In this document: piece after piece, positions 38,560-53,800 of the stretch
How the letters are laid out: each line of letters opens with the position of its first letter
Position numbering within the stretch: position 1 is the first letter of the stretch
Source of the DNA: Sulfuriferula sp.
Lineage (GTDB): Bacteria; Pseudomonadota; Gammaproteobacteria; Burkholderiales; Sulfuriferulaceae
Length of the DNA stretch: 64,000 nt
Direction of reading: 5' to 3'
Assembly: GCA_035530335.1 (NCBI GenBank)
Contig: DATKUZ010000028.1
Span: 61,842-125,841, forward strand
Program-made: the position numbers and the translations under genes
Notes under the pieces: generated by a model
Database searches by the model: none
The model's input: only the letters and a program-made list of their open reading frames with translations
Told to the model about the DNA's origin: nothing

Positions 38560-38687
38560 TATTTTTCCGATTTTTTCTGAATGGAGTCGCCGACTTTTTC
38601 CAGATCCTGGCCGAAGCCATGCACGGTATTGCAGGCAGAGAGACCGAGAACGGAAAACGGGGTGGAGATGAGAGCAAGGATGCGCAT
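38559..38687 (-). CDS. Entericidin A/B family small lipoprotein (42 aa, not in the ORF track)
   Basis: Manual translation gives [42 protein letters not shown], with lipobox LSAC and the CNT..G.G.D motif. Its stop overlaps the leuD start. Confidence 0.85.
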
Positions 38688-38691
38688 GATT

Positions 38692-40173: not shown

Positions 40174-41319
40174 TCAGGCCTCCATTGCCTTGAGTTTCCA
40201 TGCCACCAGCACAAATCCCAGCAGGGCAAATCCCGCCGCGATGCTAAAAGTCCAGTGTGCGCCCAGCCTGTCCCAGATTGCCCCAGCGTAGAGGCCGCCC
40301 AGCGTACCGCCCGCGCCGAACGCCATGCTGTTGTAGATGCCCTGCCCGCGCGCCTGATGCCTGCCGCGGAAATAACGGTGAATCAGCGCCACCGCAGACG
40401 CGTGGAAAGCGCCGAAAGTCGCCGCGTGCAGCACCTGGGCAAAAATCACCCAGGCCGGGTAATCCACCCTCCAGGCAATGATGAGGAAGCGCAGCACCGC
40501 GATGGCAAAAGTCGCCAACAGAATGCGCGCCATGGACACCCCCGGCAACAGACGCGGCAGCCACATAAATACAGCGATTTCGCAGATCACCCCCAACGCC
40601 CACAGCCAGCCCACCGCGCTTTTGCTATAGCCATGGTCCACCAGATAAATGGAATAGAAAGTGTAATACGGCCCATGCGCTACTGCCATCAGGAAGCACG
40701 CCACGATCAGCGCCATGACTTCGGGGCGGCGCACGATATGCCACACCGGCAGGTGATCGGCCACATGCACTTCGATCACTGCCTCCGGGATATGTCGTGC
40801 CAGCAGCGCAATGCCGGCCATGAAGCCCAGCACCGCCCAAGGCAAATCGCCGATTGGCCGCACGTCGAACCAGTAACCCAGCCCCAGCACCGCCACGATA
40901 AACCCCACCGAACCCCATAAGCGGATGCGCCCGTAGCGGTGGCTATGCTCGCCCAGGTGCGACAGCGTGGTGGCCTCCACCAGCGGCAGCGACGCGCTCC
41001 AGAAGAAACTCATGCTCGCCATCACCGCAAACAGCCAGGCAAAGCTGCTGCCAAAAAATACGCCGAGATAGCACAACAGACTCCCCAATGCCGCGATCTG
41101 CACGATCATCACGCGCTTGCCGCTGCGATCTGCCATCCAGCCCCAGATATTCGGCGCGAAAATCCGCATTACCTGCAACAGCGACATCAGCACACCGATC
41201 TGGAATGCACTGAACGTCAGCGACTCTAGGTAAAGCGCCCAGAACGGCGATATCGCCCCGACAAAGGCGAAATAGAAAAAATAGAAACCCGACAGGCGCC
41301 AGTAGGGGAGATTTTGCAT
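40174..41319 (-). CDS. MFS transporter (MFS_1-like)
   Basis: About 12 TM segments; FYFFYFA, WG..AD, YG.IRLWGS.GF, LHAATFG.FH, RGQG.Y. Confidence 0.88.
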   Translation of the reverse strand: MQNLPYWRLSGFYFFYFAFVGAISPFWALYLESLTFSAFQIGVLMSLLQVMRIFAPNIWGWMADRSGKRVMIVQIAALGSLLCYLGVFFGSSFAWLFAVMASMSFFWSASLPLVEATTLSHLGEHSHRYGRIRLWGSVGFIVAVLGLGYWFDVRPIGDLPWAVLGFMAGIALLARHIPEAVIEVHVADHLPVWHIVRRPEVMALIVACFLMAVAHGPYYTFYSIYLVDHGYSKSAVGWLWALGVICEIAVFMWLPRLLPGVSMARILLATFAIAVLRFLIIAWRVDYPAWVIFAQVLHAATFGAFHASAVALIHRYFRGRHQARGQGIYNSMAFGAGGTLGGLYAGAIWDRLGAHWTFSIAAGFALLGFVLVAWKLKAMEA

Positions 41320-41523
41320 CAGGAATTCAAAGGTGAAAAAAACCGGTAAAAGCTGCTTTGTTGCGCCTAGCGATGGATGAACAATCAATCAGCCCTGATA
41401 CAGCGAATTTTCCACAGCTTCATCATGTTTCGACAAGACGAGCATCAGCTTAGACCCAACACGCTGTTGGGATCCAGGCCAGATCAAGCCATCCTGATTT
41501 CGTTCGTGATCAAAAACCTTGAA

Positions 41524-41566
41524 TGTGCGACAGCGTACAGACCGCAGTCCGCTTAACTCCTAATCT
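41524..41566 (+). promoter_or_regulatory. Palindrome TGTGCG-ACAG-CGTACA plus -10 TAATCT (copy A)
   Basis: 16-bp dyad at 41524-41539, then 21 nt to TAATCT at 41561. Confidence 0.7.
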
Positions 41567-41590
41567 GAAGCCTCGATTAAAGGAGATTTC

Positions 41591-42049
41591 ATGAAAACAG
41601 TCCACAAAGCATTAGCGGTTGCAGGGATGGCAACCATGTTGCTGGGAGGTTGCGCCAATAGCAATCCATATCCTGACAATCAATCCGGTAATTCTACGCG
41701 TTACAGCAGCGCCTATGGGATTGTTGATTCCATCAACGCAGTGCAGACGGACAGCAATGGCAGCCCGATAGGCATCGGTACCGTCATCGGTGGTGTCGTT
41801 GGCGGCGTATTGGGCAATCAGGTTGGGGGCGGTACCGGCAGAACCGTCGCAACGGCGGCAGGCGCAGTCGGTGGCGCCGTTGTCGGCCACGAGATCGAAA
41901 AGAACCAGAACAATTCGAATTCCAATGCCTATCGTATCGGCGTCCGTCTTGATAACGGCGGCTATGAAAGCTTCACGCAAGACGATATTGGCGATATGCG
42001 CGTAGGCGACCGGGTGCGTATCGACAATGGCCGCGTCACCCGCTATTGA
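41591..42049 (+). CDS. Glycine-zipper 2TM outer-membrane lipoprotein (SlyB/Pcp-like)
   Basis: Lipobox LGGC; G.VIGGVVGGVLGNQVGGG.G...AT.AGAVGGA.VG.EIEK; VGDRV. Confidence 0.88.
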   Translation: MKTVHKALAVAGMATMLLGGCANSNPYPDNQSGNSTRYSSAYGIVDSINAVQTDSNGSPIGIGTVIGGVVGGVLGNQVGGGTGRTVATAAGAVGGAVVGHEIEKNQNNSNSNAYRIGVRLDNGGYESFTQDDIGDMRVGDRVRIDNGRVTRY

Positions 42050-42142
42050 AGCCGCATTGACTTGTCCTTGCATTCATTAAGGCGAGGGCAACAATCCTCG
42101 ATGGGCAATCCCGCCTTTCGAATCAACTGCAAAGGAGAAAAT

Positions 42143-42358
42143 ATGAACTGGGACATCGTTCAAGGAAACTGGAAACAATTCAAAGGTAATGTTAAGCAAC
42201 AATGGGGCAAGCTTACTGATGATCATCTGGATCAAATCGCTGGCAAACGTGACCAGTTGGCCGGCAAGATTCAGGAAGCTTATGGCGTAAGCAAGGATGA
42301 AGCTGAAAAGCAGATCAAGGAATTTGAGGAGCGTAACAAAGATTTCCGTGCACCTTGA
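42143..42358 (+). CDS. CsbD/YjbJ family stress protein
   Basis: MNWDIVQGNWKQFKG.VKQQWGKLTDD.LDQI.GKRDQL.GKIQE.YG. RBS AAGGAG. Confidence 0.92.
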   Translation: MNWDIVQGNWKQFKGNVKQQWGKLTDDHLDQIAGKRDQLAGKIQEAYGVSKDEAEKQIKEFEERNKDFRAP

Positions 42359-42445
42359 AGCGTGCTGGATACAGCATTCATCACCCGTTCATCACCCGGT
42401 TCGGACTTGAAGTCTGAACCAGGCAAATATCCAAGGAGTGAAATC

Positions 42446-42631
42446 ATGGGATTTGATCAAAAAGGATCCACAGTTTTTTGTGTGAAACATGGTAAATCCG
42501 GGCAATGGGAAGTAAGCGAAGAAGGTTTTGACAAGCCGCTGGCATCCTTCGACAGCCCGGAAGATGCCAAGAAGTATGCCAACGACCTGGCCAAGACCCA
42601 GGAAGATTTAAACGTCAAAGTAATTGATTAA
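42446..42631 (+). CDS. Small hypothetical protein (DUF2188-like)
   Basis: RBS AAGGAG before ATG 42446. Pattern V.H...G.W.V..EG......F.....A...A..LA. Confidence 0.6.
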   Translation: MGFDQKGSTVFCVKHGKSGQWEVSEEGFDKPLASFDSPEDAKKYANDLAKTQEDLNVKVID

Positions 42632-42656
42632 CCCACTTATTCATAAAGGAAAAATC

Positions 42657-43268
42657 ATGAAAAAAACCAATCTTACCGCACTTGCTACAGCCATCCTGTT
42701 GACTTTTAGCGTTGGCGCCATGGCCGAAACCATGTCCAAGACCGATTACAAGGCCAGCAAGGACAGCATTAGCTCTGAATACAAAGCCGCTAAACAAAAA
42801 TGCGATTCGCTGTCAGGCAATGCCAAGGACATTTGCAAAGCCGAAGCCAAAGGCAACGAAAACGTCGCCAAGGCTGAGTTGGAAGCGAAGTATGAGCCCA
42901 GCGAAAAAGCACGTTACAAAGCTTTGATGGCGAAAGCAGATGCCAATTACAAAGTGGCCAAAGAACGTTGCGACGACAAAGCGGGCAATGCCAAAGACGT
43001 GTGCATGAAAGAAGCCAAGGCAGCTTATGTACATGCGAAAGCCAATGCAAAAGTCCAGATGAAGAGCCTGCAGGCTGATGAAAAAGCCGATAACGCATCC
43101 GCAGAAGCCAACATGAAAGCCAAGGAAAAAACCTCTGATGCGCAGCATCAGGCTGCCAAGGACAAGCGTGCCGCAGATTTCGCTGTTGCCAAGGAAAAAT
43201 GCGAGACCTACTCTGGCGATACCAAGGAGCGTTGCATCAATCAGGCAAAAGCCCAGTTTGGAATGTGA
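42657..43268 (+). CDS. Exported Lys/Ala-rich protein with three Cys-pair repeats
   Basis: Signal peptide ending AMA and repeats K.KC...SG.AKD.C..EAK. RBS AAGGA. Confidence 0.8.
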   Translation: MKKTNLTALATAILLTFSVGAMAETMSKTDYKASKDSISSEYKAAKQKCDSLSGNAKDICKAEAKGNENVAKAELEAKYEPSEKARYKALMAKADANYKVAKERCDDKAGNAKDVCMKEAKAAYVHAKANAKVQMKSLQADEKADNASAEANMKAKEKTSDAQHQAAKDKRAADFAVAKEKCETYSGDTKERCINQAKAQFGM

Positions 43269-43393
43269 ATGACAGTTTGAAAACCGTACCAATTATCCGG
43301 TAAACGGCGTTCTATATTGGTGAATGATTCCGCACCGGATAAGGACTATGGATCGGCGTAAATCAATTACAAATCTTTGAGAGGGGTACTGTC

Positions 43394-43543
43394 ATGCTAT
43401 ATACAATCGCGGTTATTTTGATCATTCTCTGGTTGCTGGGCATGGTCACCTCCTACACTTTGGGGGGGTTCATTCACATTCTTCTGGTCATTGCGATAGT
43501 GGTTATCCTGCTCAGGGTAATCAGCGGCAGGCCTCCGGTATAG
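43394..43543 (+). CDS. lmo0937/DUF5670-like small membrane protein (49 aa, not in the ORF track)
   Basis: Manual translation gives MLYTIAVILIILWLLGMVTSYTLGGFIHILLVIAIVVILLRVISGRPPV. Confidence 0.8.
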   Translation: MLYTIAVILIILWLLGMVTSYTLGGFIHILLVIAIVVILLRVISGRPPV

Positions 43544-43691
43544 CCACTACTGTCAGTGGAGGCATCATGTACGTAGCCGAACTGCTTCATGGCCGGAGTG
43601 GCAATTCCGCCATCTGTGTAATGATGAATCTTATGGTCGGAATCCGCCTACATGATGCCGGAATGAACGCAAACCAATAGAGATCAATAGA

Positions 43692-44339
43692 ATGAATTTC
43701 TCGCACCACACTTCGGTAGAAATCATACTCACCCTGCTCGTGGCAGGCCAGGCAAGCTTGAGCCATGCCGATGCGCAGGCGGGTGCTGCAATAGCCAAGA
43801 ATGGTACGGGTGCAGGTTCAGCCTGCATGCAGTGCCATGGGGCAAACGGAGAGGGACAGGCCGCAGCCGGGTTCCCGCGTCTGGCAGGACAAAACAGGGA
43901 TTACCTGGTCAAGCAGCTGACGGATTTCAAGGCAAAATTGCGCACCAATCCCCTGATGGGGCCCATTGCTAGTGCACTGAGCACTACGCAGATGAAAGAT
44001 GTTGCAGATTACTACGCCGGTTTGCCAGCCTGGAAACCTGAACTCAATGCTGCACCCAGTACTGCGCAAACAGCACGCGGCGCGCAACTGGCACATCAAG
44101 GCAATTGGGACGAAGGCATGCCTGCCTGTTTTACCTGTCACGGCGAAAGCGGCGCTGGTATCGCGCCGCATTTCCCGAGCATTGCCGGGCAAAATTCCGT
44201 TTACATAGCGAACCAGCTCAAAAACTGGCAAACCGGAGCACGCCTGAATGACCCGCAGGGATTGATGAAGGCAGTTGCCGACAAACTCAGCGCGGAGGAT
44301 ATCAGCGCGGTCAGCGCCTATCTGGAGAACCCAAAATGA
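43692..44339 (+). CDS. tsdB: Diheme cytochrome c4-type, TsdB-like electron acceptor
   Basis: Signal peptide, CMQCH and CFTCH, P.LAGQ...Y...QL repeats. Directly upstream of tsdA. Confidence 0.75.
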   Translation: MNFSHHTSVEIILTLLVAGQASLSHADAQAGAAIAKNGTGAGSACMQCHGANGEGQAAAGFPRLAGQNRDYLVKQLTDFKAKLRTNPLMGPIASALSTTQMKDVADYYAGLPAWKPELNAAPSTAQTARGAQLAHQGNWDEGMPACFTCHGESGAGIAPHFPSIAGQNSVYIANQLKNWQTGARLNDPQGLMKAVADKLSAEDISAVSAYLENPK

Positions 44340-44360
44340 CGATTAATCTGGAGGCGTACC

Positions 44361-45302
44361 ATGATTCGATGGATTAATCAGCTTACACAAAATGGAAAAT
44401 TTCACCCCATGTGGATTGTGCTGGCGGTCACGGGGGTGTTGCTCGTAGGGGGTATTGTCCTTGTCCCAGCCTTGTATGAGGGCGCGAAAGAACCCAGGCA
44501 AAATGTTGTAACAGCCACCACGAAATCCGTAGCCGCAGCCAACTTGCCAGAGCCTGATTCAGGGCAGCACGATTTGCCGAAAGATCCGCAAAGCGTTCCA
44601 ACAGCGCATTTCAAGCCGCCCTCGGAGAGCGACATGCCTGCCGGTGAGTTTGGTGACATGGTCAAGTTGGGCAGGAATATTTTCGTGCATACGCAGATCT
44701 ACGCCAAAGGACTGGTCGGTAATGGCCTCAATTGCGTCAACTGCCACCTGGACGCGGGACGCAAGGCGGATTCAGCACCGTTATGGGCCGCCTATGTCAT
44801 GTTCCCGGCTTATCGCAGCAAAAATCACAAGGTCAACAGTTTCGAAGATCGCCTGGCCGGCTGTTTCCGCTTCAGCATGAACGGCACCGCGCCGGAATAT
44901 AACAGCAAGGAAATGATTGCCTTGACCAGCTATAGCTACTGGCTTGCGAAAGGCGCCCCCACCGGTGTGGAACTGCCGGGGCGCGGTTTTCCAAAGCTGG
45001 AAAATCCGCCGCTGCCACCTGATGTACAACGCGGCGCTGCCGTATTCAAGGCCAATTGCGCCATTTGCCACGGCACAGGTGGCCTGGGTACAAAAGTAAA
45101 CGGGCAATACGCATTCCCACCGCTATGGGGCAAGGATTCCTATAATGCCGGCGCTGGCATGCACTCCGTAAAAAATGCAGCTGCCTTCATCAAGGCAAAT
45201 ATGCCGCTGGGCAAGGGTAATTCCCTCTCGCTGCAGGAGGCTTGGGATGTTGCACAATTTGTGGACAGCCACGACAGACCACCGGACCCCAGGGCCAAAT
45301 AG
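44361..45302 (+). CDS. tsdA: Thiosulfate dehydrogenase/tetrathionate reductase TsdA-family diheme cytochrome c
   Basis: CVNCH and CAICH, catalytic Cys in RLAGCFRFSMNG, FPPLWG.DSYN.GAGM, NMPLG. Confidence 0.85.
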   Translation: MIRWINQLTQNGKFHPMWIVLAVTGVLLVGGIVLVPALYEGAKEPRQNVVTATTKSVAAANLPEPDSGQHDLPKDPQSVPTAHFKPPSESDMPAGEFGDMVKLGRNIFVHTQIYAKGLVGNGLNCVNCHLDAGRKADSAPLWAAYVMFPAYRSKNHKVNSFEDRLAGCFRFSMNGTAPEYNSKEMIALTSYSYWLAKGAPTGVELPGRGFPKLENPPLPPDVQRGAAVFKANCAICHGTGGLGTKVNGQYAFPPLWGKDSYNAGAGMHSVKNAAAFIKANMPLGKGNSLSLQEAWDVAQFVDSHDRPPDPRAK

Positions 45303-45350
45303 TCGGTCTGTCAGCTTTGCATACAGACCGCAAACAGCCGGGATTAACAC

Positions 45351-45551
45351 ATGCCCCAGAACCCGGTAACGCCATCTCCCCAGCTCCGGCTGCTCACCTG
45401 TCCGGTATGCGGCGGTACTGTGGCACGCATACACCGCAGACTGATCGACCGTTTAATCAGTCTGGTGGTTTTGCGTCATCGTTACCGCTGTCTCGCCATG
45501 GGGTGTGGCTGGGAGGGAAATCTTCCCCCGATGAAAAAATTCAGGAAATAA
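45351..45551 (+). CDS. Small putative zinc-ribbon protein (66 aa)
   Basis: CPVCGG...RIHRR..DR...RYRC...GCGWEG: four Cys in two pairs. Confidence 0.55.
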   Translation: MPQNPVTPSPQLRLLTCPVCGGTVARIHRRLIDRLISLVVLRHRYRCLAMGCGWEGNLPPMKKFRK

Positions 45552-45694
45552 CTGCAGGCGTTAAGATCGCCTACGCTATATATCCTTTCTGGCTTACATT
45601 GCGAGCAATGAAGATTGCTGCAAAATCAGTGACGGGAATTGGCTGGAAGCCTGTAGGACTCGATACATATACCAATCAAAAGGTGAGTTCGCTC

Positions 45695-47131
45695 ATGGCA
45701 ATCTCCTTGCAATTGCGACGCCATCCAGAATTCCTGGTCCGGCGATGGTGTACGAGATTCATGACCGCCACCATGTTATGCCTGCTGATGCTGACCGGAT
45801 GCGCGAGCCTGCCCAATGCCAAAGCTGCGCTGGAGACACCTGCATCGCATAAGGTGCAATTTGACAGTGCCCAAGGGGCCTTGCCGGCAAAAAAAAGCCA
45901 GGTCATCCTCAAGCAATTGAAGCAGGAGGTAGGCAACCTGGATATTTTGCAAAAACACCTCGCGCTGGAGCAGGCAATCAATCCTGAAAATCCACTGGTA
46001 TTAGGCAACAAGGTTACCTTGCTGAAGGATGGCCCGTCCACTTATAAAGCCATGTTTTCTGCCATCCGCAACGCACGCAGTACGATCAACCTGGAGACCT
46101 ATATCTTCGAAGACGGCCAGGTAGGTGATGAATTTGCAGAATTGCTGCTGGATAAGCAAGCACACGGGGTGCAGGTAAACCTGATTTATGACAGCGTCGG
46201 CTCGCTCGGCACACCGAAGGATTTTTTTCAATTCATGGCCGACAGCGGCATCCATGTCGTGGAATTCAACCCGGTCAATCCGTTGGCGCACAACTCAAAA
46301 ACATGGCTGCTGAATAACCGTGACCATCGCAAGCTGCTGGTTGTGGATGGCCGAATTGCTTTTGTCGGTGGCATTAATATCAGTAATGCCTACTCCAGTG
46401 GATCTATTTTACGTCACAGGACAAAAACGGGTGGTTCATCATTCGGCTGGCGTGACACCCATGTCGAAATTGCCGGACCCGCGGTTGCCGAATTCCAGAA
46501 GCTGTTCCTGGATACCTGGCAAAAGCAAAGTGGCGCGCCGCTTGCCCGGCGCGACTATTTTCCTCAACTCAGCAAACAGGGCGATGAAATCGTGCGCGCC
46601 ATCGGTAGCGTGGCCAATGATCCCGCCAGTCCGATTTATCTGACGTTGCTGTCAGTCATCAATCACGCAGAACGACAGGTGCACCTGACTAATGCCTATT
46701 TTGTGCCCGATCCGCAACTGATTAAAGCCTTGATAGATGCAGCGCGACGGGGCGTGGATGTGAAGCTGATACTACCGAGCCATAGCGATTCGTGGATAGT
46801 CTTCAATGCCGGACGTTCGCATTACACCAAGCTATTGCGCGCGGGAGTAAAAATCTACGAGCGCCGCGGAGCCGTGATGCACGCCAAAACTGCCACGATC
46901 GATGGTGTCTGGTCGACCATCGGTTCAACCAATCTGGATTGGCGCAGTTTTCTGCATAATGACGAGATCAATGCAGTCATCCTGGGTAGCGATTTTGCCA
47001 ATCAGATGGAAGCCATGTTTGCCAATGACCTGGCGCAATCCGATCAGATTGAGCTGAAGCAATGGCAGCGCCGGCCAATCACTTCGCGCTTCAAGGAATG
47101 GCTGTCCCGGCTGCCGGAATACTGGCTGTAA
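45695..47131 (+). CDS. Cardiolipin synthase-like phospholipase D (ClsB-like) with N-terminal lipobox
   Basis: Two HKD motifs (DHRKLLVVDG, MHAKTATIDG), WRDTH, LTNAYFVP. RBS AAGGTGAG before ATG 45695; LTGC. Confidence 0.85.
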   Translation: MAISLQLRRHPEFLVRRWCTRFMTATMLCLLMLTGCASLPNAKAALETPASHKVQFDSAQGALPAKKSQVILKQLKQEVGNLDILQKHLALEQAINPENPLVLGNKVTLLKDGPSTYKAMFSAIRNARSTINLETYIFEDGQVGDEFAELLLDKQAHGVQVNLIYDSVGSLGTPKDFFQFMADSGIHVVEFNPVNPLAHNSKTWLLNNRDHRKLLVVDGRIAFVGGINISNAYSSGSILRHRTKTGGSSFGWRDTHVEIAGPAVAEFQKLFLDTWQKQSGAPLARRDYFPQLSKQGDEIVRAIGSVANDPASPIYLTLLSVINHAERQVHLTNAYFVPDPQLIKALIDAARRGVDVKLILPSHSDSWIVFNAGRSHYTKLLRAGVKIYERRGAVMHAKTATIDGVWSTIGSTNLDWRSFLHNDEINAVILGSDFANQMEAMFANDLAQSDQIELKQWQRRPITSRFKEWLSRLPEYWL

Positions 47132-47186
47132 GCCGTCCCTTGCATGCAAATCCCTATCGTTAAGTAGACCTTCAGGCGGCGTCTTG

Positions 47187-47229
47187 TGTGCGCCGGCGCA
47201 CAGATAACAATCACTATTTAACTTAATCT
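47187..47229 (+). promoter_or_regulatory. Palindrome TGTGCG-CCGG-CGCACA plus -10 TAATCT (copy B)
   Basis: Dyad at 47187-47202, then 21 nt to TAATCT at 47224. Confidence 0.7.
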
Positions 47230-47394
47230 GTCTGTGGCAGTAGTCCCGAACTTTGCCCCCCCGGCGTGACAGAGACCGTGTGGTGTCGCCAACAGCGAGA
47301 TCAGGCCTAACGACAGGTTGTGAATCGTTGGTAGCGCGCATTGCCGCTGGACAAATGTTCATTTCCATCATCACCTCATACTACGGAGATTAAA

Positions 47395-47970
47395 ATGTCA
47401 CAGAAAACAGCTCTTACCGACATTGCCACCCTGCGCAAACGCGCACGCCAGCATATTGAAGAAGGTGCAGTAACCGCTGGTTATGATGCGGATCGCACAA
47501 TGGTACTCAAATTGCTGAATGACTCGCTCGCCACCGAAATAATTTGTGTTCTGCGTTATCGGCGTCATCACTTCATGGCAAAAGGAATTCAGTCAAAAAG
47601 CATTGCTGATGAATTTCTGGTTCACTCTAACGAGGAACAGAATCATGCCGACCTGATAGCCGAGCGCATCGTGCAACTCGGTGGAGCGCCCGACTTCTCG
47701 CCAGACGGAATGACCGGACGCAGCCACTCGGAATATGTAGAAGCTATATCACTGGTGGATATGATCAAGGAAAACGTAGTGGCTGAACGCATTGCCATTG
47801 ATACTTACCGCGAGATTATCCAGTACATCGGCGATAAGGATCCCACTACCCGCCGCATGCTGGAAGGCATACTCGCCATGGAAGAAGAGCATGCAGATGA
47901 AATGGCCGATTTACTGGTAAATTTTGCCGCGGAAAACCGCTCTAAAACACCGCCTGCCAAAAAGCATTGA
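47395..47970 (+). CDS. Ferritin-like / bacterioferritin-family protein
   Basis: LNDSLATE..C.LRY..H, EEQNHAD..AERI.QLGG.P, AERIAI..YRE, EEEHAD (diiron ExxH pairs). RBS GGAG. Confidence 0.85.
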   Translation: MSQKTALTDIATLRKRARQHIEEGAVTAGYDADRTMVLKLLNDSLATEIICVLRYRRHHFMAKGIQSKSIADEFLVHSNEEQNHADLIAERIVQLGGAPDFSPDGMTGRSHSEYVEAISLVDMIKENVVAERIAIDTYREIIQYIGDKDPTTRRMLEGILAMEEEHADEMADLLVNFAAENRSKTPPAKKH

Positions 47971-47982
47971 TGATCAGGTGTA

Positions 47983-48025
47983 TGTACGACAGCGTACAGA
48001 CGGTTTTTGTCATGCTTAATAAACT
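47983..48025 (+). promoter_or_regulatory. Palindrome TGTACG-ACAG-CGTACA plus -10 TAAACT (copy C)
   Basis: Dyad at 47983-47998, then 21 nt to TAAACT at 48020. Confidence 0.7.
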
Positions 48026-48099
48026 GGTTACAAGCTTGCAAATCTCTGCTTCCGGAGTTCAGGCTTTTTAATCAGCACTTAACATTCAGGAGATTAATC

Positions 48100-48266
48100 A
48101 TGACCAAGAAAATCCTATCCGCATTAGTGCATTAGTAATGGCAGGCACCCTGGGCATGTTGCTCAGCGTCAGCGCCTGCAACACCGTGGCTGGCGCAGGC
48201 AAGGACGTCGAACAAGCAGGGGATGCGATTCACGACAAAGCCAGAGATGTGCAGCAAGAAAACTAA
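48100..48266 (+). pseudogene. Entericidin-family lipoprotein frameshifted by an 8-bp tandem duplication
   Basis: GCATTAGT occurs twice at 48121-48136. Removing one copy restores the 52-aa MTKKILSALVMAGTLGMLLSVSACNTVAGAGKDVEQAGDAIHDKARDVQQEN. Confidence 0.8.
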
Positions 48267-48289
48267 AATGCAATTTTGGTAAGTAAGCG

Positions 48290-48318
48290 AAAAGGGCTTC
48301 TACCAGGAGCTCTTTTTT
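48290..48318 (+). terminator. Intrinsic terminator
   Basis: AAGGGCTTC-tacca-GGAGCTCTT stem with G-U pairs, followed by a T run. Confidence 0.65.
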
Positions 48319-48473
48319 GCTATGCACAAACAATTAATTTTTTAATAACACGCATCGAATTGCCATAAACCATGGCCTATTCAATCCACATCAAAGCAAG
48401 CCGGCTGTTAATCAATAAATAACCAGCCGGATCATAACAAAGACATTTATGTCGTCTCCCGGATAACGCGACC

Positions 48474-49658
48474 ATGGAAACAGCACCTCAGTCCGAATCG
48501 GCAAAAACTGCAAATAACACGATCAGCGCTTCCGATACCGATAACCTGACGCTGCCACCCACGCATGAGACGGTGGAAGCGCACAGCACGGCGCTTGCCA
48601 TCCTCGCTGTCATCGCCCTGATATTCGTCCTCGATTGGGCGCAGATCTTTGTCATTTCCTTGCTGCTCGGCATTTTGTTCGCTTACACACTGAATCCGTT
48701 GGTGGCATGGCTGGAATTCATCAAGATACCGCGTGTGATTGGCGCCAGCATGGTAATGCTGGCCGTGGTGAGCATGGTATTGCTGAGTACCTACGCCTTG
48801 CGCGGACAAATGCAAACCATAGTCGATCAGTTGCCCAAGGCCGCCAGCAAGCTCTCGTCCGCAGCCATTCATTGGCGGCACGGCCAGCTTGGCAACATGC
48901 AAAAAGTACAAATCGCCGCAAACGAAATTGAAAAAGCGACCAATCAGGTTGCCGCTACATCAGCGCCCAACAAACGCGCGACTACCTACGTGGTCGTTGA
49001 GCCGCCTGCATTCAAGCTCAATACCTTATTGTGGACGGGGTCGACAGGTGTGCTGGCGTTTATCGGACAAGCCATCATGGTGGCTTTCCTTACCTATTTC
49101 CTGCTGCTGTCGGGTGATACCTTCAAGCGCAAGCTGGTGCGACTGGCCGGGCCGACGCTGACCAGAAAGAAAATTACAGTCCATATTCTGGATGACATTA
49201 ACAACTCCATCCAGAATTACATGTTCATGCTGTTGATCACCAATGCCCTGGTGGGCGTGCTGACCTGGGCGGCTTTCACCTGGCTGGGCCTGGAAAATGC
49301 GGGCGCCTGGGCGGTAGCGGCGAGCCTGTTACACATCATTCCGTATTTCGGCCCCGCCATTACTGCCGGCGTGACCGGAATGGCGGCGTTCATTCAATTC
49401 GATTCAATTTCATCTGCACTACAGGTGGCAGGTGCATCATTGCTGATAGCCACGATCATCGGTACCCTGGTCACCACCTGGATGACGGGTAGATTTGCGA
49501 AAATGAATACTGCGGCCGTATTTATTTCCCTGCTGTTCTGGACCTGGCTGTGGGGTATATGGGGCATGCTGCTCAGCATACCCATCATCGTCATCGTGCG
49601 GGTTGTGTCCCAACACATCGAGCAATTGCATCCTGTTGCAGAATTGCTGGGCGACTAG
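48474..49658 (+). CDS. AI-2E family transporter
   Basis: AY.LNP.V.WL, YFLL..GD.FKRK, IPYFGP, LLFW.WLWG..GMLLS.P. Confidence 0.88.
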   Translation: METAPQSESAKTANNTISASDTDNLTLPPTHETVEAHSTALAILAVIALIFVLDWAQIFVISLLLGILFAYTLNPLVAWLEFIKIPRVIGASMVMLAVVSMVLLSTYALRGQMQTIVDQLPKAASKLSSAAIHWRHGQLGNMQKVQIAANEIEKATNQVAATSAPNKRATTYVVVEPPAFKLNTLLWTGSTGVLAFIGQAIMVAFLTYFLLLSGDTFKRKLVRLAGPTLTRKKITVHILDDINNSIQNYMFMLLITNALVGVLTWAAFTWLGLENAGAWAVAASLLHIIPYFGPAITAGVTGMAAFIQFDSISSALQVAGASLLIATIIGTLVTTWMTGRFAKMNTAAVFISLLFWTWLWGIWGMLLSIPIIVIVRVVSQHIEQLHPVAELLGD

Positions 49659-50800: not shown

Positions 50801-53800
50801 TCAATGTTTATCCGGCACCCGGACTGCAATGAGTCGATCCACATATACATATTTCACATATTTTGCACTCGGTGCCTGGACATAGATGCCTTTGCCCTGG
50901 TCTGTATCGTAACGGAACGGGCCGCCCGGAACCTTGATCAGATGGTACTGGCCATCATTCAAATTGCCTATCAATCCCGGATTGAACAAACCCATCGGCG
51001 GGGAATATCCGACTTTTGCACCCACATCCTTGTCATGATTTGCAGCAGCGTCAGTGCGGATACTCGCATAAAGCTCCCATTGACCCTCCTTGGGCAGCTT
51101 ATCCAGCTTGAACTGCACCGCCCAGGTGGAGGAGTCGCCTTTCATCCTGGCTGCGGCGCCATCGGACGCCGCCTTATCCTGAACGATTTGCGCCGATTCA
51201 TAGCGATTGAAACTCAAATCCTGAAAATCCCTCCAGTCCGATCCGGGCAAATCGCGCACCATCGCAGGAACCGCCGGTGTGTGCCGCTCGACTGCCAGCA
51301 ATTCCTCCAGTTCCTGGATATTCCCCCCCTGACGGTACTGCGTCACTTTCGCCGTGCGCAGCGTCTGCTTGAAACGCGCCAGGCGCTGCGCGGTGCCCGG
51401 CTGCCAGTCGAGGTCACGGCGGGCGGCCTCGTCCGCATACTCTTTACGTCGTACCAGAATGACGTAATCCACAGGCATGCGCGCTTCTTTCACGTGCTCC
51501 AGCAACACCGGGTTGTTTGCCACTGCCGCCTGCGCTTGCTCGAACAACTGGTCTGCAGCACGCACGAAGTCCAGATTCAGCATGGCCAGATCGACCTGGG
51601 TTTTCTCGCCAAGCATGTCGCCGCTCCTGGCAATCGCCGCGTGCATCAGATCGATGTACTGGAGCACGTAGGGGCTGGCCGCACCGAAATAATACCGGCA
51701 ATATTCGGCGACCAGCGCCCTGACGTCCTGCTTCGGGTTCCACAACAGCCGCGCGATCATCCACGCACGCAAGCTGGCAAACTCGGCAGCCGGCGTATCC
51801 CAGCTGCCTTCGGCAAAATAACCATGCACATTCGGCAGCGTAGCCAGCCATTGCAGGCTATGGCCGATCGGATAAATGTTGGGCGTGGGCTGAAGGAAGC
51901 CGCTGAAGTTGGTAATGTGATCCCATACCAGGATGTGTTTCGCGATGGCATTCCAGCCTGCGATGTCCTGGCCCAGTTTCTTGTTTCTCCCCTGGTTCAG
52001 CGGTGAGCTGTAATCCACCTGTATCGTCATCGGAAATACCAGCACATAGTCGGGCACCGTCATGCCCTTGGGTGGCGTAAAACTCCAGTGATAGGCGTTG
52101 AAAGCCAGACGTGCGCCGGGTAGAACCTTGCGCACGCGGTTGGCGATATCGATCACCATGTCCAGCCGGGGTGCGGATGGCTCGCCGCCATGCTTGTCGG
52201 CAAAGGCTTTGCTGGCCGGATCCATATCCCAGCCCCAGTCCATGTCGTGAAGATCGAACCAGACTTTTCTGTAGTCCGGCAGCTGCTTCAATCGGTTGAT
52301 GATGGCCTCGGCCATGACCTGGCGCACTTGCGGATTCATCATCGCCACCTGGCCACCGGCATACCAGTCAGGATGTGCCTTGGCATATTTATCCTGCGGC
52401 ATCAGCTCCCAGAAAGTGGCTTCTCCGCCTTTCGCCCCCCAGCTGTGATTCCAGCTGTCGATTTCCGGTGGCGACGCGCTGAACGACGGCCCGTGCGATT
52501 CGCCGTTGAGCAGATTATGGGCGCGATAAGGCTTGTCCTGCCCTTCATAGCTGAGCACTTCCCGATAGCCGAAGCGCGGCACCTGCAGCTCATCCAGACG
52601 CGCAACCTGCAGCTTACTTTCCTCCGGCACATAAGTGTAGGAAGGGCTAAGCCACTTGACCCCGAGCTTGCGATCCAGAAACCAGTTGACGCCATACATG
52701 GTGCCGCGCGGTGTGGCGCCGGCTATCACCAGATGCGGCCCCACGGTGCGGATGACGAAGCCGTCCTCGCCCAACTTGTCATAGGGAATGTCCGGGCACA
52801 ACCGTTGCGTCAGGGCATTGTCACGCCCGACCACCAGCAGCGGGCCGGTCTGCGGATTGTCATCGGAGGAAAATGACGCAAAGCTGGCACCGCTGATCTG
52901 CTTCAGATAATCGGCAAGCGTGGCGGCTGCACCCAGGGTGATGGCATCGGCATTTCGAGCCACATGGATGTGATAACGCGCGTGACCGTTATCCGCCAGA
53001 ACCAAGGTGCCGGGAGACTTGCCAGCGCCCGCGGCAATCGCGGCAGCGATGGTTTTTTCGACGTTGCCGGTTTTTACCGCCGGTGCAAACATGGCCGCCG
53101 CCATCTCCGTCTGCTTCAAGATAGCCGCCGTAGTGACCGGATCGTCTGTCGGGCTCACCGCAACCGCATCAAAGTCGGCCGCACCAGGCGTAGCTGCCTT
53201 CTTGCGCAGATAAAGCAACAGCTCGTTGGCGCCGGGCGGCGCTTTTACCACCACCGAATACGATTTCCATGCATGCGTCCCGCCGGTCACAAACAGTGCC
53301 GGCTCGGCCCCCGAAGCCAGCTTGACTTGCTGCGGCCCTCGCCACCCGGCATCGACTCCGCTGCCGCGAAAACTCAACTGGACAAATACCGAGCCGTCGG
53401 CCGCATCCTTGGAGCGGATCTGCATGCTCACCCGATAGTGCTTGCCGCCCACCACAGGCCGCTTGTCCTGGGCGGCAAATCCCCCGGTGATTCTCAGGGC
53501 CGACCGGCCTTCAGCTGCACTACCCTTGATGATGCCCCCATCACCCCACCAGGGCGCCTTGCCTGTTTCAAACCCGCCGTTCCGGATAATCCGGATCGGC
53601 GCAAGGGTTCCCGCCGTCAGCCGTTCGATGGACAGGTCATCGAAATAGGCCGTTCCCCGGGGTTCAGGCTGGGCGTCATGACGCAGGTAAATCTGCAACG
53701 CTCTGGCAGCGGGCGGAATCTGCGTGGCGGGAATCACTGCCGAATATTCCTTCCAGCCTGATGTCCCCCCAACCGACAGCAACGCCGGTGATTTACCACC

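What the first reader, a model, noticed from the sequence alone, without database searches (positions are those of the whole stretch)
41524..48025. Hidden regulon: three TGTRCG-N4-CGYACA boxes each exactly 21 nt before a TAAWCT -10 element
Seen: copy A 41524-41539, copy B 47187-47202 and copy C 47983-47998. Each is followed by GA(C/T), and a -10-like TAATCT/TAATCT/TAAACT sits at identical spacing. They precede the glycine-zipper/csbD run, the ferritin-like gene and the entericidin gene. Degenerate copies occur at 43568 (TGTACG-TAGC-CGAACT, before tsdB) and near 45310. Established: a 16-bp TGT-N10-ACA dyad centred about -41.5 is the class II promoter geometry of CRP/FNR-family activators, but this half-site differs from CRP (TGTGA) and FNR (TTGAT). 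With a standard -10 to start distance the centre falls at -41.5. Inference: a CRP/FNR-family activator, not encoded in this window, drives a general-stress regulon in this betaproteobacterium.
Basis: partly seen in the sequence, partly recalled or inferred. Interest (0 to 1): 0.72.

Follow-up and report, generated by a model that had tools for sequence, protein, structure and literature searches.

The report
Stress-gene promoters with a CRP-family operator
Three stress-protein promoters in this window share a 16-bp palindrome that is very probably bound by an unstudied CRP/FNR-type regulator, whose gene sits next to the first box in every close relative examined but is missing here.

Summary
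The window has exactly three TGTRCG-N4-CGYACA boxes (0.03 expected). Each is followed by GAY and, 21 nt after the box, by TAAWCT. The "degenerate copies" at 43568 and about 45310 are no better than chance.

The rule holds well beyond this window. A box+GAY+N18+TAAWCT scan of 185,579 species genomes gave 109 loci against roughly 4-10 expected, mostly Beta- and Gammaproteobacteria. A metagenome scan that ignored the -10 gave 126 non-redundant sites. Of these, 64 have nAnnnT at spacing 21, 24 at 22, 9 at 20, and about 6 at any other offset.

Downstream genes are a coherent small stress-protein set: BON/OsmY-like, CsbD, glycine zipper, DUF3309, ElaB-like, YeaQ-like and entericidin.

One conserved CRP/FNR subfamily is encoded in 43 of 109 genome loci and 26 of 120 metagenome loci. 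In every close relative examined it lies between the MFS gene and box A. The window has 165 unrelated bases in that slot.

The mechanism is ordinary class II activation. The half-site, the regulon and the regulator subfamily appear undescribed. TSSs, binding and activation are untested.

The parts
41524..41539 (+). Box A, TGTGCGACAGCGTACA; predicted operator centred at about -41.5
   Evidence: Exact pattern match. Box, GAC and -10 are conserved in relatives L079, L016, L074, L246 and L251 while the spacer varies.
41540..41542 (+). GAC flank of box A; corresponds to -33 to -31, the core of a weak -35 (caGACc)
   Evidence: G and C here break the palindrome's symmetry. GA[CTA] lies on the promoter side of about 17 of 19 unconstrained boxes. 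Position arithmetic.
41561..41566 (+). -10 element TAATCT of promoter A; predicted TSS near 41573 and an 18-nt leader to ATG 41591
   Evidence: nAnnnT peaks at spacing 21.
41591..43543 (+). Genes downstream of promoter A: glycine-zipper lipoprotein 41591-42049, CsbD 42143-42358, DUF2188 42446-42631, 203-aa secreted protein 42657-43268, DUF5670 43394-43543
   Evidence: Pfam. The same families follow the box in other genomes. Metatranscriptome contigs match 42831-43124.
47187..47229 (+). Promoter B: box TGTGCGCCGGCGCACA 47187-47202, GAT, -10 TAATCT 47224-47229; predicted TSS near 47236 and a leader of about 160 nt
   Evidence: The orthologous box in L251 has its -10 at spacing 22.
47395..47970 (+). 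Ferritin-like (bacterioferritin-like) gene driven by promoter B
   Evidence: PF00210 at 98 bits. Homologues in L240-L242 sit in an operon behind a 1-mismatch box plus GAC plus TAACTT.
47983..48025 (+). Promoter C: box TGTACGACAGCGTACA 47983-47998, GAC, -10 TAAACT 48020-48025; predicted TSS near 48032
   Evidence: The orthologous box lies before entericidin in L246.
48101..48266 (+). Entericidin gene. It is frameshifted by an 8-bp tandem duplication (GCATTAGT x2, 48121-48136). A 42-aa ORF remains from ATG 48138.
   Evidence: Pfam Entericidin. Comparison with the intact 52-aa allele in L005.
41353..41517 (.). 165 nt that replace about 917 nt carrying the CRP/FNR-family regulator gene in close relatives. 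Homology resumes at the left edge of box A.
   Evidence: blastn against L079, L016, L074, L246 and L251. No regulator remnant by tblastn. Synteny.
48474..49658 (+). AI-2E family transporter; possible further member, either by read-through from promoter C or from its own promoter
   Evidence: A box precedes an AI-2E gene in L082. Ferritin and AI-2E are linked in L240-L242. Membership here is not shown.

Best explanation
The three boxes are operators for a dimeric CRP/FNR-family transcription factor of an uncharacterised subfamily. Its members are about 240 aa, have the recognition helix GVRRE(G/S)(V/I)TEAA, and carry invariant Cys/His motifs.

Each box sits in a weak sigma-70-type promoter (caGACn, 17 bp, TAAWCT) and is centred at about -41.5. 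A bound dimer would therefore overlap the -35 region and recruit RNA polymerase as a class II activator.

The three promoters would drive (1) glycine-zipper, CsbD, DUF2188, a secreted protein and DUF5670, (2) a ferritin-like protein, and (3) entericidin.

Shown: the motif, its fixed spacing to a -10, its conservation, the coherent stress-gene set downstream, and its co-localisation with the regulator gene.

Inferred: that this protein binds the box, that it activates rather than represses, the TSS positions, and the inducing signal.

In this genome the regulator gene next to box A has been deleted. The promoters must therefore depend on a copy elsewhere in the genome, or be newly orphaned.
For: - Window statistics: 3 boxes against 0.03 expected.
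- Genome scan with the -10 required: 109 loci against about 4-10 expected by my information-content estimate, concentrated in Beta- and Gammaproteobacteria.
- Unbiased metagenome sample of 126 non-redundant sites. nAnnnT occurs 64 times at spacing 21, 24 at 22, 9 at 20, and 1-12 at other offsets. TAnnnT occurs 34 times at spacing 21 against 0-3 at offsets outside 20-22.
- Extra information at T(-2) and A(+17) and a central YR step give a 20-bp palindrome. G(+16) and C(+18) are asymmetric and coincide with the GAC of the -35.
- The two half-sites vary independently (39/34/33/20), so there is no hairpin covariation.
- Downstream genes: BON 29, CsbD 15, DUF3309 10, glycine zipper 9, plus ElaB-like, YeaQ-like, entericidin and the regulator itself. 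The median distance from the -10 to the start codon is 95 nt.
- The regulator family is in 43 of 109 genome loci and 26 of 120 metagenome loci, where under 1 would be expected by chance.
- It lies divergent from box A in L079, L016, L074 and L246-L251.
- Boxes with GAC plus a -10 face the regulator gene in L046, L086, L194 and L231, which suggests autoregulation.
- The fold is CRP-like: pLDDT 89.6, TM 0.75-0.80 to Mtb CRP, GlxR and FNR; HTH_Crp_2 at 55 bits.
- Phylogenetic footprint: box, GAC and -10 are kept while spacers diverge.
Against: - No TSS is mapped. Metatranscriptome contigs were uninformative about 5' ends.
- There is no binding or expression experiment.
- The genome and metagenome loci were selected by the box, so only the presence of the regulator gene is unbiased, not its adjacency to a box.
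- The family has tandem paralogues, so which paralogue reads this box is unknown.
- The window lacks the regulator gene, and one target (entericidin) is frameshifted. The regulon may be decaying in this lineage.
- Some ferritin homologues have no box within 1.5 kb (L243-L245).
Confidence: 0.72

Rival explanations
1. The same CRP/FNR-family protein binds the box but acts as a repressor. It would block the -35 region until a stress signal releases it.
For: The box overlaps the -35 position. CRP/FNR proteins can repress. The regulator is often divergent from its target with a shared intergenic region, an arrangement also common for repressors.
Against: The core promoter is weak: caGACn matches 3 of 6 and TAAWCT matches 3 of 6 of consensus, with no TG extension. 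Without an activator it would give little to repress. The spacing is fixed to within 1 bp in about 77% of unbiased sites. That is what face-of-helix activation requires, and repression does not need it.
Confidence: 0.1
2. In this particular genome the boxes are orphans. The regulator was lost with the deletion next to box A, no paralogue replaces it, and the promoters are relics that are silent or constitutive and weak.
For: The regulator gene is absent from its syntenic slot and from all 64 kb. The same structure appears in independent assemblies L001 and L002. The entericidin target is frameshifted in four assemblies.
Against: All three boxes, GAY flanks and -10s are perfect, and the glycine-zipper, CsbD and ferritin ORFs are intact. 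Metatranscriptome contigs identical to 42831-43124 suggest the first operon is transcribed. The family commonly has several copies per genome.
Confidence: 0.13
3. A different dimeric regulator reads the box, for example a LuxR/TraR-type protein. The tra box TGTGCA-GATC-TGCACA has the same 16-bp frame (recalled, not tested). The CRP-like gene would then be just another regulon member.
For: The resemblance to the tra box is recalled from memory only. Some boxes face the CRP-like gene itself, which fits it being a target.
Against: No other regulator family was seen recurrently, although I searched the loci only for the CRP family. Autoregulation is typical of CRP/FNR proteins. The protein keeps the Arg-Glu pair at the positions of CRP R180/E181, and by my recollection of CRP-DNA structures that pair reads the G:C of TGTG.
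Confidence: 0.04
4. The palindromes act as RNA or DNA hairpins (terminators or REP-like elements), not as protein sites.
For: Box C followed by GACGGTTTTT was flagged as terminator-like, 13 nt after the ferritin stop codon.
Against: The half-sites do not covary: A with C in 33 of 126 sites. Box A lies between divergent genes. The T-run after box C starts 5 nt after a 6-bp stem. The minimum-energy fold of the box A region does not use the box hairpin. No Rfam family matches.
Confidence: 0.01

Closest known systems
E. coli CRP (CAP) class II promoters such as galP1
   Same: A dimeric CRP-fold protein, a 16-bp TGT-N10-ACA frame, a site centred at -41.5 overlapping a poor -35, and an Arg-Glu pair in the recognition helix.
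   Different: The half-site is TGTRCG rather than TGTGA. CRP R185 is replaced by Glu. The cNMP_binding match is below Pfam's threshold (21.9 against 27.5 bits), so cAMP is not the evident ligand. The protein has an extra C-terminal helix and invariant Cys/His motifs. The regulon is stress proteins, not catabolism.
FNR/FixK/Dnr group (TTGAT-N4-ATCAA at -41.5)
   Same: Class II geometry, an N4 centre between 6-bp half-sites, and frequent autoregulation.
   Different: The half-site differs. There is no N-terminal Cys cluster: the N-terminus MSSIHDPKQNHLL... has no Cys. The targets are unrelated to respiration.
Cyanobacterial NtcA (GTA-N8-TAC at -41.5)
   Same: The TGTACG...CGTACA variant contains GTA-N8-TAC. 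The geometry is class II.
   Different: NCBIfam NtcA scores 18.6 bits against a cut-off of 245. The CG dinucleotides are invariant here. The host taxa and regulon differ.
RpoS general-stress regulon of enterobacteria (osmY, yjbJ/csbD, elaB, ecnB, dps, ygaU, ymgE)
   Same: Nearly the same protein families are controlled. The -10 tends to carry C at -8 and T at -6, and I recall these as sigma-S-favoured.
   Different: Control here is through an operator-bound activator, not only through a sigma factor. Whether sigma-S or sigma-70 transcribes these promoters was not tested.
Thermus thermophilus SdrP (a stationary-phase CRP-family activator); recalled, not tested here
   Same: A CRP-family protein that activates stress and stationary-phase genes without an evident cyclic-nucleotide ligand.
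   Different: The site and the phylum differ, and no sequence comparison was made here.

Membership tests
CRP/FNR superfamily (the regulator found in relatives) | C-terminal Crp-type winged HTH | tested here: met
   PF13545 HTH_Crp_2 at 52-58 bits against a cut-off of 27, for three members.
CRP/FNR superfamily (the regulator found in relatives) | N-terminal beta-barrel sensor domain plus a long dimerisation helix | tested here: met
   AF2 model with pLDDT 89.6: strands 29-107 and helix 120-145. Foldseek TM 0.75-0.80 to Mtb CRP, GlxR and FNR at E about 1e-13. Pfam cNMP_binding itself is sub-threshold at 21.9 bits.
Class II activator-dependent promoter | Operator centred near -41.5 with spacing to the -10 fixed to the base pair | tested here: met
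   nAnnnT at spacing 21 in 64 of 126 sites, at 22 in 24, at 20 in 9, and a background of about 6. Relative to a TSS this remains inferred, because no TSS is mapped.
Class II activator-dependent promoter | Weak -35 and dependence on the activator for transcription | not testable with these tools
   The weak -35 (caGACn) and weak -10 are seen. Dependence needs a mutant or in vitro transcription.
cAMP-CRP proper | TGTGA-N6-TCACA half-sites and a cAMP-binding pocket | tested here: not met
   The fifth and sixth half-site positions were fixed as CG by every search pattern, and the three window boxes read TGTRCG, not TGTGA. cNMP_binding is below threshold. The pocket residues do not align cleanly in A1, so they were not tested rigorously.
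FNR | N-terminal Cys cluster for a [4Fe-4S] centre; TTGAT half-site | tested here: not met
   There is no Cys in the first 140 residues of the L079 protein. The conserved Cys are at 142, 153, 219 and 221. The half-site differs.
NtcA | NCBIfam TIGR03697 equivalog score | tested here: not met
   18.6 bits against a cut-off of 244.95.
Intrinsic terminator / structured RNA | Stem covariation, an adjacent U-tract, or an Rfam match | tested here: not met
   The half-sites vary independently, the folds are inconsistent, and there is no Rfam hit at E<=0.1.

The most novel reading that the evidence does not exclude
An uncharacterised, highly conserved CRP/FNR subfamily may be the master activator of a general-stress regulon of envelope- and cytoplasm-protecting proteins. 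Its members are up to about 85% identical between Methylococcaceae and a MAG labelled Gallionella sp. The regulon (BON/OsmY, CsbD, glycine zipper, ElaB, YeaQ, entericidin, ferritin-like) would span many non-enteric Beta- and Gammaproteobacteria and some Acidobacteriota. That would make it an operator-based counterpart of the RpoS regulon. The signal might be sensed through the invariant Cys/His motifs or through the neighbouring CheB/CheR-PAS and histidine-kinase genes. The window would then show a natural regulator deletion that leaves three intact operators.
Probability: 0.45. Interest if true: 0.78.

Novelty: new member of a known kind. Interest (0 to 1): 0.62.

Why it matters
Nitrifiers, methanotrophs, sulfur and iron oxidisers and soil Oxalobacteraceae carry these boxes, yet I know of no description of how they switch on their small stress proteins.

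This analysis yields three usable things:
- a defined 20-bp operator (T-N-TGTRCG-NYRN-CGYACA-N-A);
- a strict promoter rule (GAC at -33 to -31, then a -10 exactly 21 nt after the box);
- a named candidate regulator.

Together they make the regulon predictable from sequence in many genomes. They also make it directly testable in cultured strains such as Sulfuriferula multivorans, Herminiimonas and Massilia.

The mechanism itself is textbook class II activation, so the gain is a new regulon and regulator subfamily, not a new principle.

Tried and rejected
- **Relaxed matches in the window.** 2-mismatch copies are at chance level. The copies at 43568 and near 45310 were rejected.
- **RNA evidence for TSSs.** Only one small metatranscriptome touches the window, with two contigs inside the 203-aa gene. 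A Methylobacter locus had one weak run, which I did not pursue. Nitrotoga-like metatranscriptome contigs show the BON gene expressed, but they are undirected and their ends are uninformative.
- **Co-occurrence test.** I tried to link a regulator-bearing contig (L115) to the window's organism through shared sequencing runs.
- **Composition test.** L115 has GC 56.8% and a tetranucleotide correlation of 0.905 with the window, but this does not discriminate because a Gallionella locus scores 0.94.
- **Organism name.** The cluster look-up returned no names.
- **Literature.** Six searches found no description of the motif or of the regulator subfamily. The BerA/Bcam1349 paper gives no BerA site and no sequence to compare.
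- **Hairpin or terminator reading.** Rejected.
- **Regulator search in the window.** None hit the window.
Full report
**1. The observation**

The window holds exactly three matches to TGTRCG-N4-CGYACA, at 41524, 47187 and 47983. All are on the + strand in the sense that the flanks are directional. Shuffles give 0.03 matches on average and none gave three.

Reading the sequence confirms that each box is followed by GAC, GAT and GAC. Twenty-one bases after each box lies TAATCT, TAATCT or TAAACT.
- The copy at 43568 lacks both the GA flank and a -10.
- The region near 45310 keeps only a right half-site.
- A scan combining a relaxed box, flank and -10 finds only the three sites in 64 kb, plus one 3-mismatch hit at 51053 on the minus strand that is most likely chance.

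**2. The genes**

Pfam identifies these genes:

| Coordinates | Product |
|---|---|
| 41591-42049 | glycine-zipper lipoprotein |
| 42143-42358 | CsbD |
| 42446-42631 | DUF2188 |
| 42657-43268 | 203-aa secreted protein |
| 43394-43543 | DUF5670 |
| 43692-45302 | TsdB/TsdA-like cytochromes |
| 45695-47131 | PLD-type enzyme, probably a cardiolipin synthase |
| 47395-47970 | ferritin-like protein |
| 48138-48266 | entericidin |
| 48474-49658 | AI-2E transporter |

Box A lies between a divergent MFS gene (start codon at 41388) and the glycine-zipper gene.

**3. Is the rule general?**

I scanned one genome for each of 185,579 species with box+GAY+N18+TAAWCT. This returned 109 loci. The pattern carries about 38 bits, so I estimate 4-10 chance hits in 1.2e12 positions.

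The hits are concentrated in two groups:
- Betaproteobacteria: Sulfuriferula, Sulfuricella, Gallionellaceae, Nitrosomonas, Nitrotoga, Methylophilaceae, Herminiimonas, Massilia, Undibacterium, Rhodoferax.
- Gammaproteobacteria: Methylococcales, Woeseiaceae, Chromatiales, Oceanimonas, Alteromonas, Pseudidiomarina.

A few Acidobacteriota also appear. L079, a Sulfuriferula MAG, carries box A with an identical 43-nt promoter, so the window comes from a close relative of that genus.

That scan forced the -10, so I needed an unbiased sample. It gave 126 non-redundant sites.
- nAnnnT occurs at spacing 21 in 64 sites, at 22 in 24 and at 20 in 9. At every other offset from 8 to 43 it occurs 1-12 times.
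- TAnnnT occurs 34 times at spacing 21 and 0-3 times at offsets outside 20-22.

So "exactly 21 nt" is a real architectural rule.

**4. Anatomy of the site**

In 89 non-redundant genome sites, the unforced positions that carry information are T at -2 and a central pyrimidine-purine step. T(-2) mirrors A(+17), so the operator is a 20-bp palindrome: T-N-TGTRCG-NYRN-CGYACA-N-A.

G(+16) and C(+18) have no mirror partner. If the -10 occupies -12 to -7, they fall at -33 and -31. That is the GAC of TTGACA at a 17-bp spacer. The asymmetry is therefore what one expects if sigma region 4 reads a residual -35 next to a symmetric dimer. The box centre is then at -41.5.

The R of one half-site and the Y of the other vary independently (39/34/33/20). 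A opposite C occurs in 33 of 126 sites. This excludes selection for a hairpin.

Other evidence also argues against an RNA element. There is no Rfam match. The minimum-energy fold of the box A region does not use the palindrome. Box C was flagged as terminator-like, but it has a 6-bp stem and a T-run starting 5 nt later.

**5. The regulon**

The first ORFs downstream of the sites in both scans cluster into these groups:
- BON/OsmY-like lipoproteins, 29 in the combined set;
- CsbD, 15;
- DUF3309-type small membrane proteins, 10;
- glycine-zipper proteins, 9;
- a 94-aa coiled-coil protein, 5;
- ElaB/DUF883-like, YeaQ/YmgE-like, BON-LysM, entericidin and outer-membrane proteins in smaller numbers;
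- the regulator itself, 3.

The median distance from the -10 to the start codon is 95 nt. Ferritin-like homologues in L240-L242 lie in an operon with an AI-2E transporter behind a 1-mismatch box plus GAC plus TAACTT. Three other homologue loci show no box within 1.5 kb.

From my knowledge of E. coli, this is essentially the protein set that RpoS controls there.

**6. The regulator**

This gave weak hits to one conserved family. Using a member of that family as the query finds it in 43 of 109 genome loci and 26 of 120 metagenome loci, and nowhere in the window. Chance would give fewer than one locus, given one to three copies per genome and blocks of 8 kb or less.

What the protein looks like:
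- It matches HTH_Crp_2 at 52-58 bits and cNMP_binding just below threshold.
- It has no specific NCBIfam model; NtcA scores 18.6 bits against a cut-off of 245.
- It has no close solved relative by sequence.
- An AlphaFold model from 40 homologues has pLDDT 89.6. It superposes on M. tuberculosis CRP, GlxR, FNR and NtcA at TM 0.75-0.80.
- The recognition helix reads GVRRE(G/S)(V/I)TEAA. It keeps the Arg-Glu pair of CRP R180/E181 and replaces R185 with Glu.
- Invariant C142-N-R-H-H, C153 and C219-E-C221, plus an extra C-terminal helix, set the family apart.
- The family is very conserved. A protein labelled Gallionella sp. is 85% identical to a Methylococcaceae one.
- All named members carry only the generic label "Crp/Fnr family transcriptional regulator".

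**7. What happened in this window**

In L079, L016, L074 and L246-L251 the gene order is LeuC, MFS, regulator (divergent), box A, glycine zipper, CsbD, DUF2188, the 203-aa protein, DUF5670, TsdB, TsdA, PLD, ferritin in some, then entericidin.

The window aligns to these relatives up to about 41350 and again from about 41520, at or just before box A. In between, 165 unrelated bases replace about 917 nt that contain the regulator gene. tblastn finds no remnant anywhere in the 64 kb. Independent assemblies L001 and L002 show the same structure.

Across the relatives the box, the GAC and the -10 are conserved while the spacers diverge, which is a classic footprint.

The entericidin gene behind box C carries an 8-bp tandem duplication that frameshifts codon 11. 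This is seen in the window and in four assemblies, while one assembly has the intact 52-aa allele. Two metatranscriptome contigs identical to 42831-43124 suggest the first operon is still transcribed.

**8. Mechanism and rivals**

The best reading is class II activation by a dimer of this CRP/FNR subfamily. The arguments are:
- fixed helical phasing;
- a poor -35 and a poor -10 that would need help;
- a symmetric operator with a sigma-side asymmetry;
- boxes in the same geometry facing the regulator gene in L046, L086, L194 and L231, implying positive autoregulation.

A repressor role for the same protein is possible but fits the weak core promoters and the strict spacing poorly. A different binding protein cannot be excluded without biochemistry.

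For this genome specifically, the operators may be orphans if no second copy of the regulator exists. I could not test that.

The signal is unknown. Two leads are the conserved Cys/His motifs and the frequent neighbourhood of tandem paralogues with a CheB-CheR-PAS fusion, a histidine kinase and a response regulator.

**9. Novelty**

Six literature searches and the curated family libraries returned no description of this half-site, regulon or subfamily. The library searched is incomplete, so this is absence of evidence only.

The mechanism is a known kind. The regulator subfamily, its operator and its general-stress regulon appear to be new members of it.

Noticed in passing
window 48101-48266 (duplication at 48121-48136): The entericidin gene behind box C has an 8-bp tandem duplication (GCATTAGT GCATTAGT) that frameshifts after codon 10. 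The same is seen in assemblies L001-L004, while L005 has the intact 52-aa allele. A 42-aa ORF restarting at 48138 lacks the charged start of the signal peptide.
   Followed up: yes
window 41353-41517: 165 nt replace the CRP/FNR-family regulator gene that occupies this slot in every close relative examined. Homology resumes at the left edge of box A.
   Followed up: yes
window 41000-49000: The stress-gene cluster is 51% G+C against 58% for the whole window.
   Followed up: no
window 45309-45352: A right half-site with the same flank as box A (CATACAGACCGCA), followed 21 nt later by ACACAT, lies upstream of the PLD gene. The left half is degenerate. No matching box (at most 1 mismatch, with a GA flank) was found upstream of the PLD gene in relatives L246 and L251.
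   Followed up: partly
L115 916-8432; L117 5233-10720: Elsewhere the regulator family occurs as tandem paralogues beside a CheB-CheR-PAS fusion protein, a histidine kinase and a response regulator. This may be the signalling input.
   Followed up: no
alignment A2 / protein P0247, residues 142-146, 153, 219-221: Invariant C-N-R-H-H at the end of the dimerisation helix, an invariant Cys at 153, C-E-C at the start of an extra C-terminal helix, and a nearly invariant (at least 90%) Cys at position 153. This is a possible redox or metal-sensing site that CRP lacks.
   Followed up: no
L252 3833 and 6912 (Burkholderia cenocepacia large replicon): A paralogue of the regulator is flanked by variant boxes TGTACG-N4-CGTACC with TAGCGT 21 nt after the box. 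Related subfamilies may read slightly different operators with the same geometry.
   Followed up: no
window about 38560-38690 (L001 1165-1293): A second entericidin-family gene lies between leuC and leuD, outside the box-controlled cluster.
   Followed up: no
window 47236-47394: The predicted leader of the ferritin-like gene is about 160 nt long. It has no Rfam match, and its function, if any, is unknown.
   Followed up: partly
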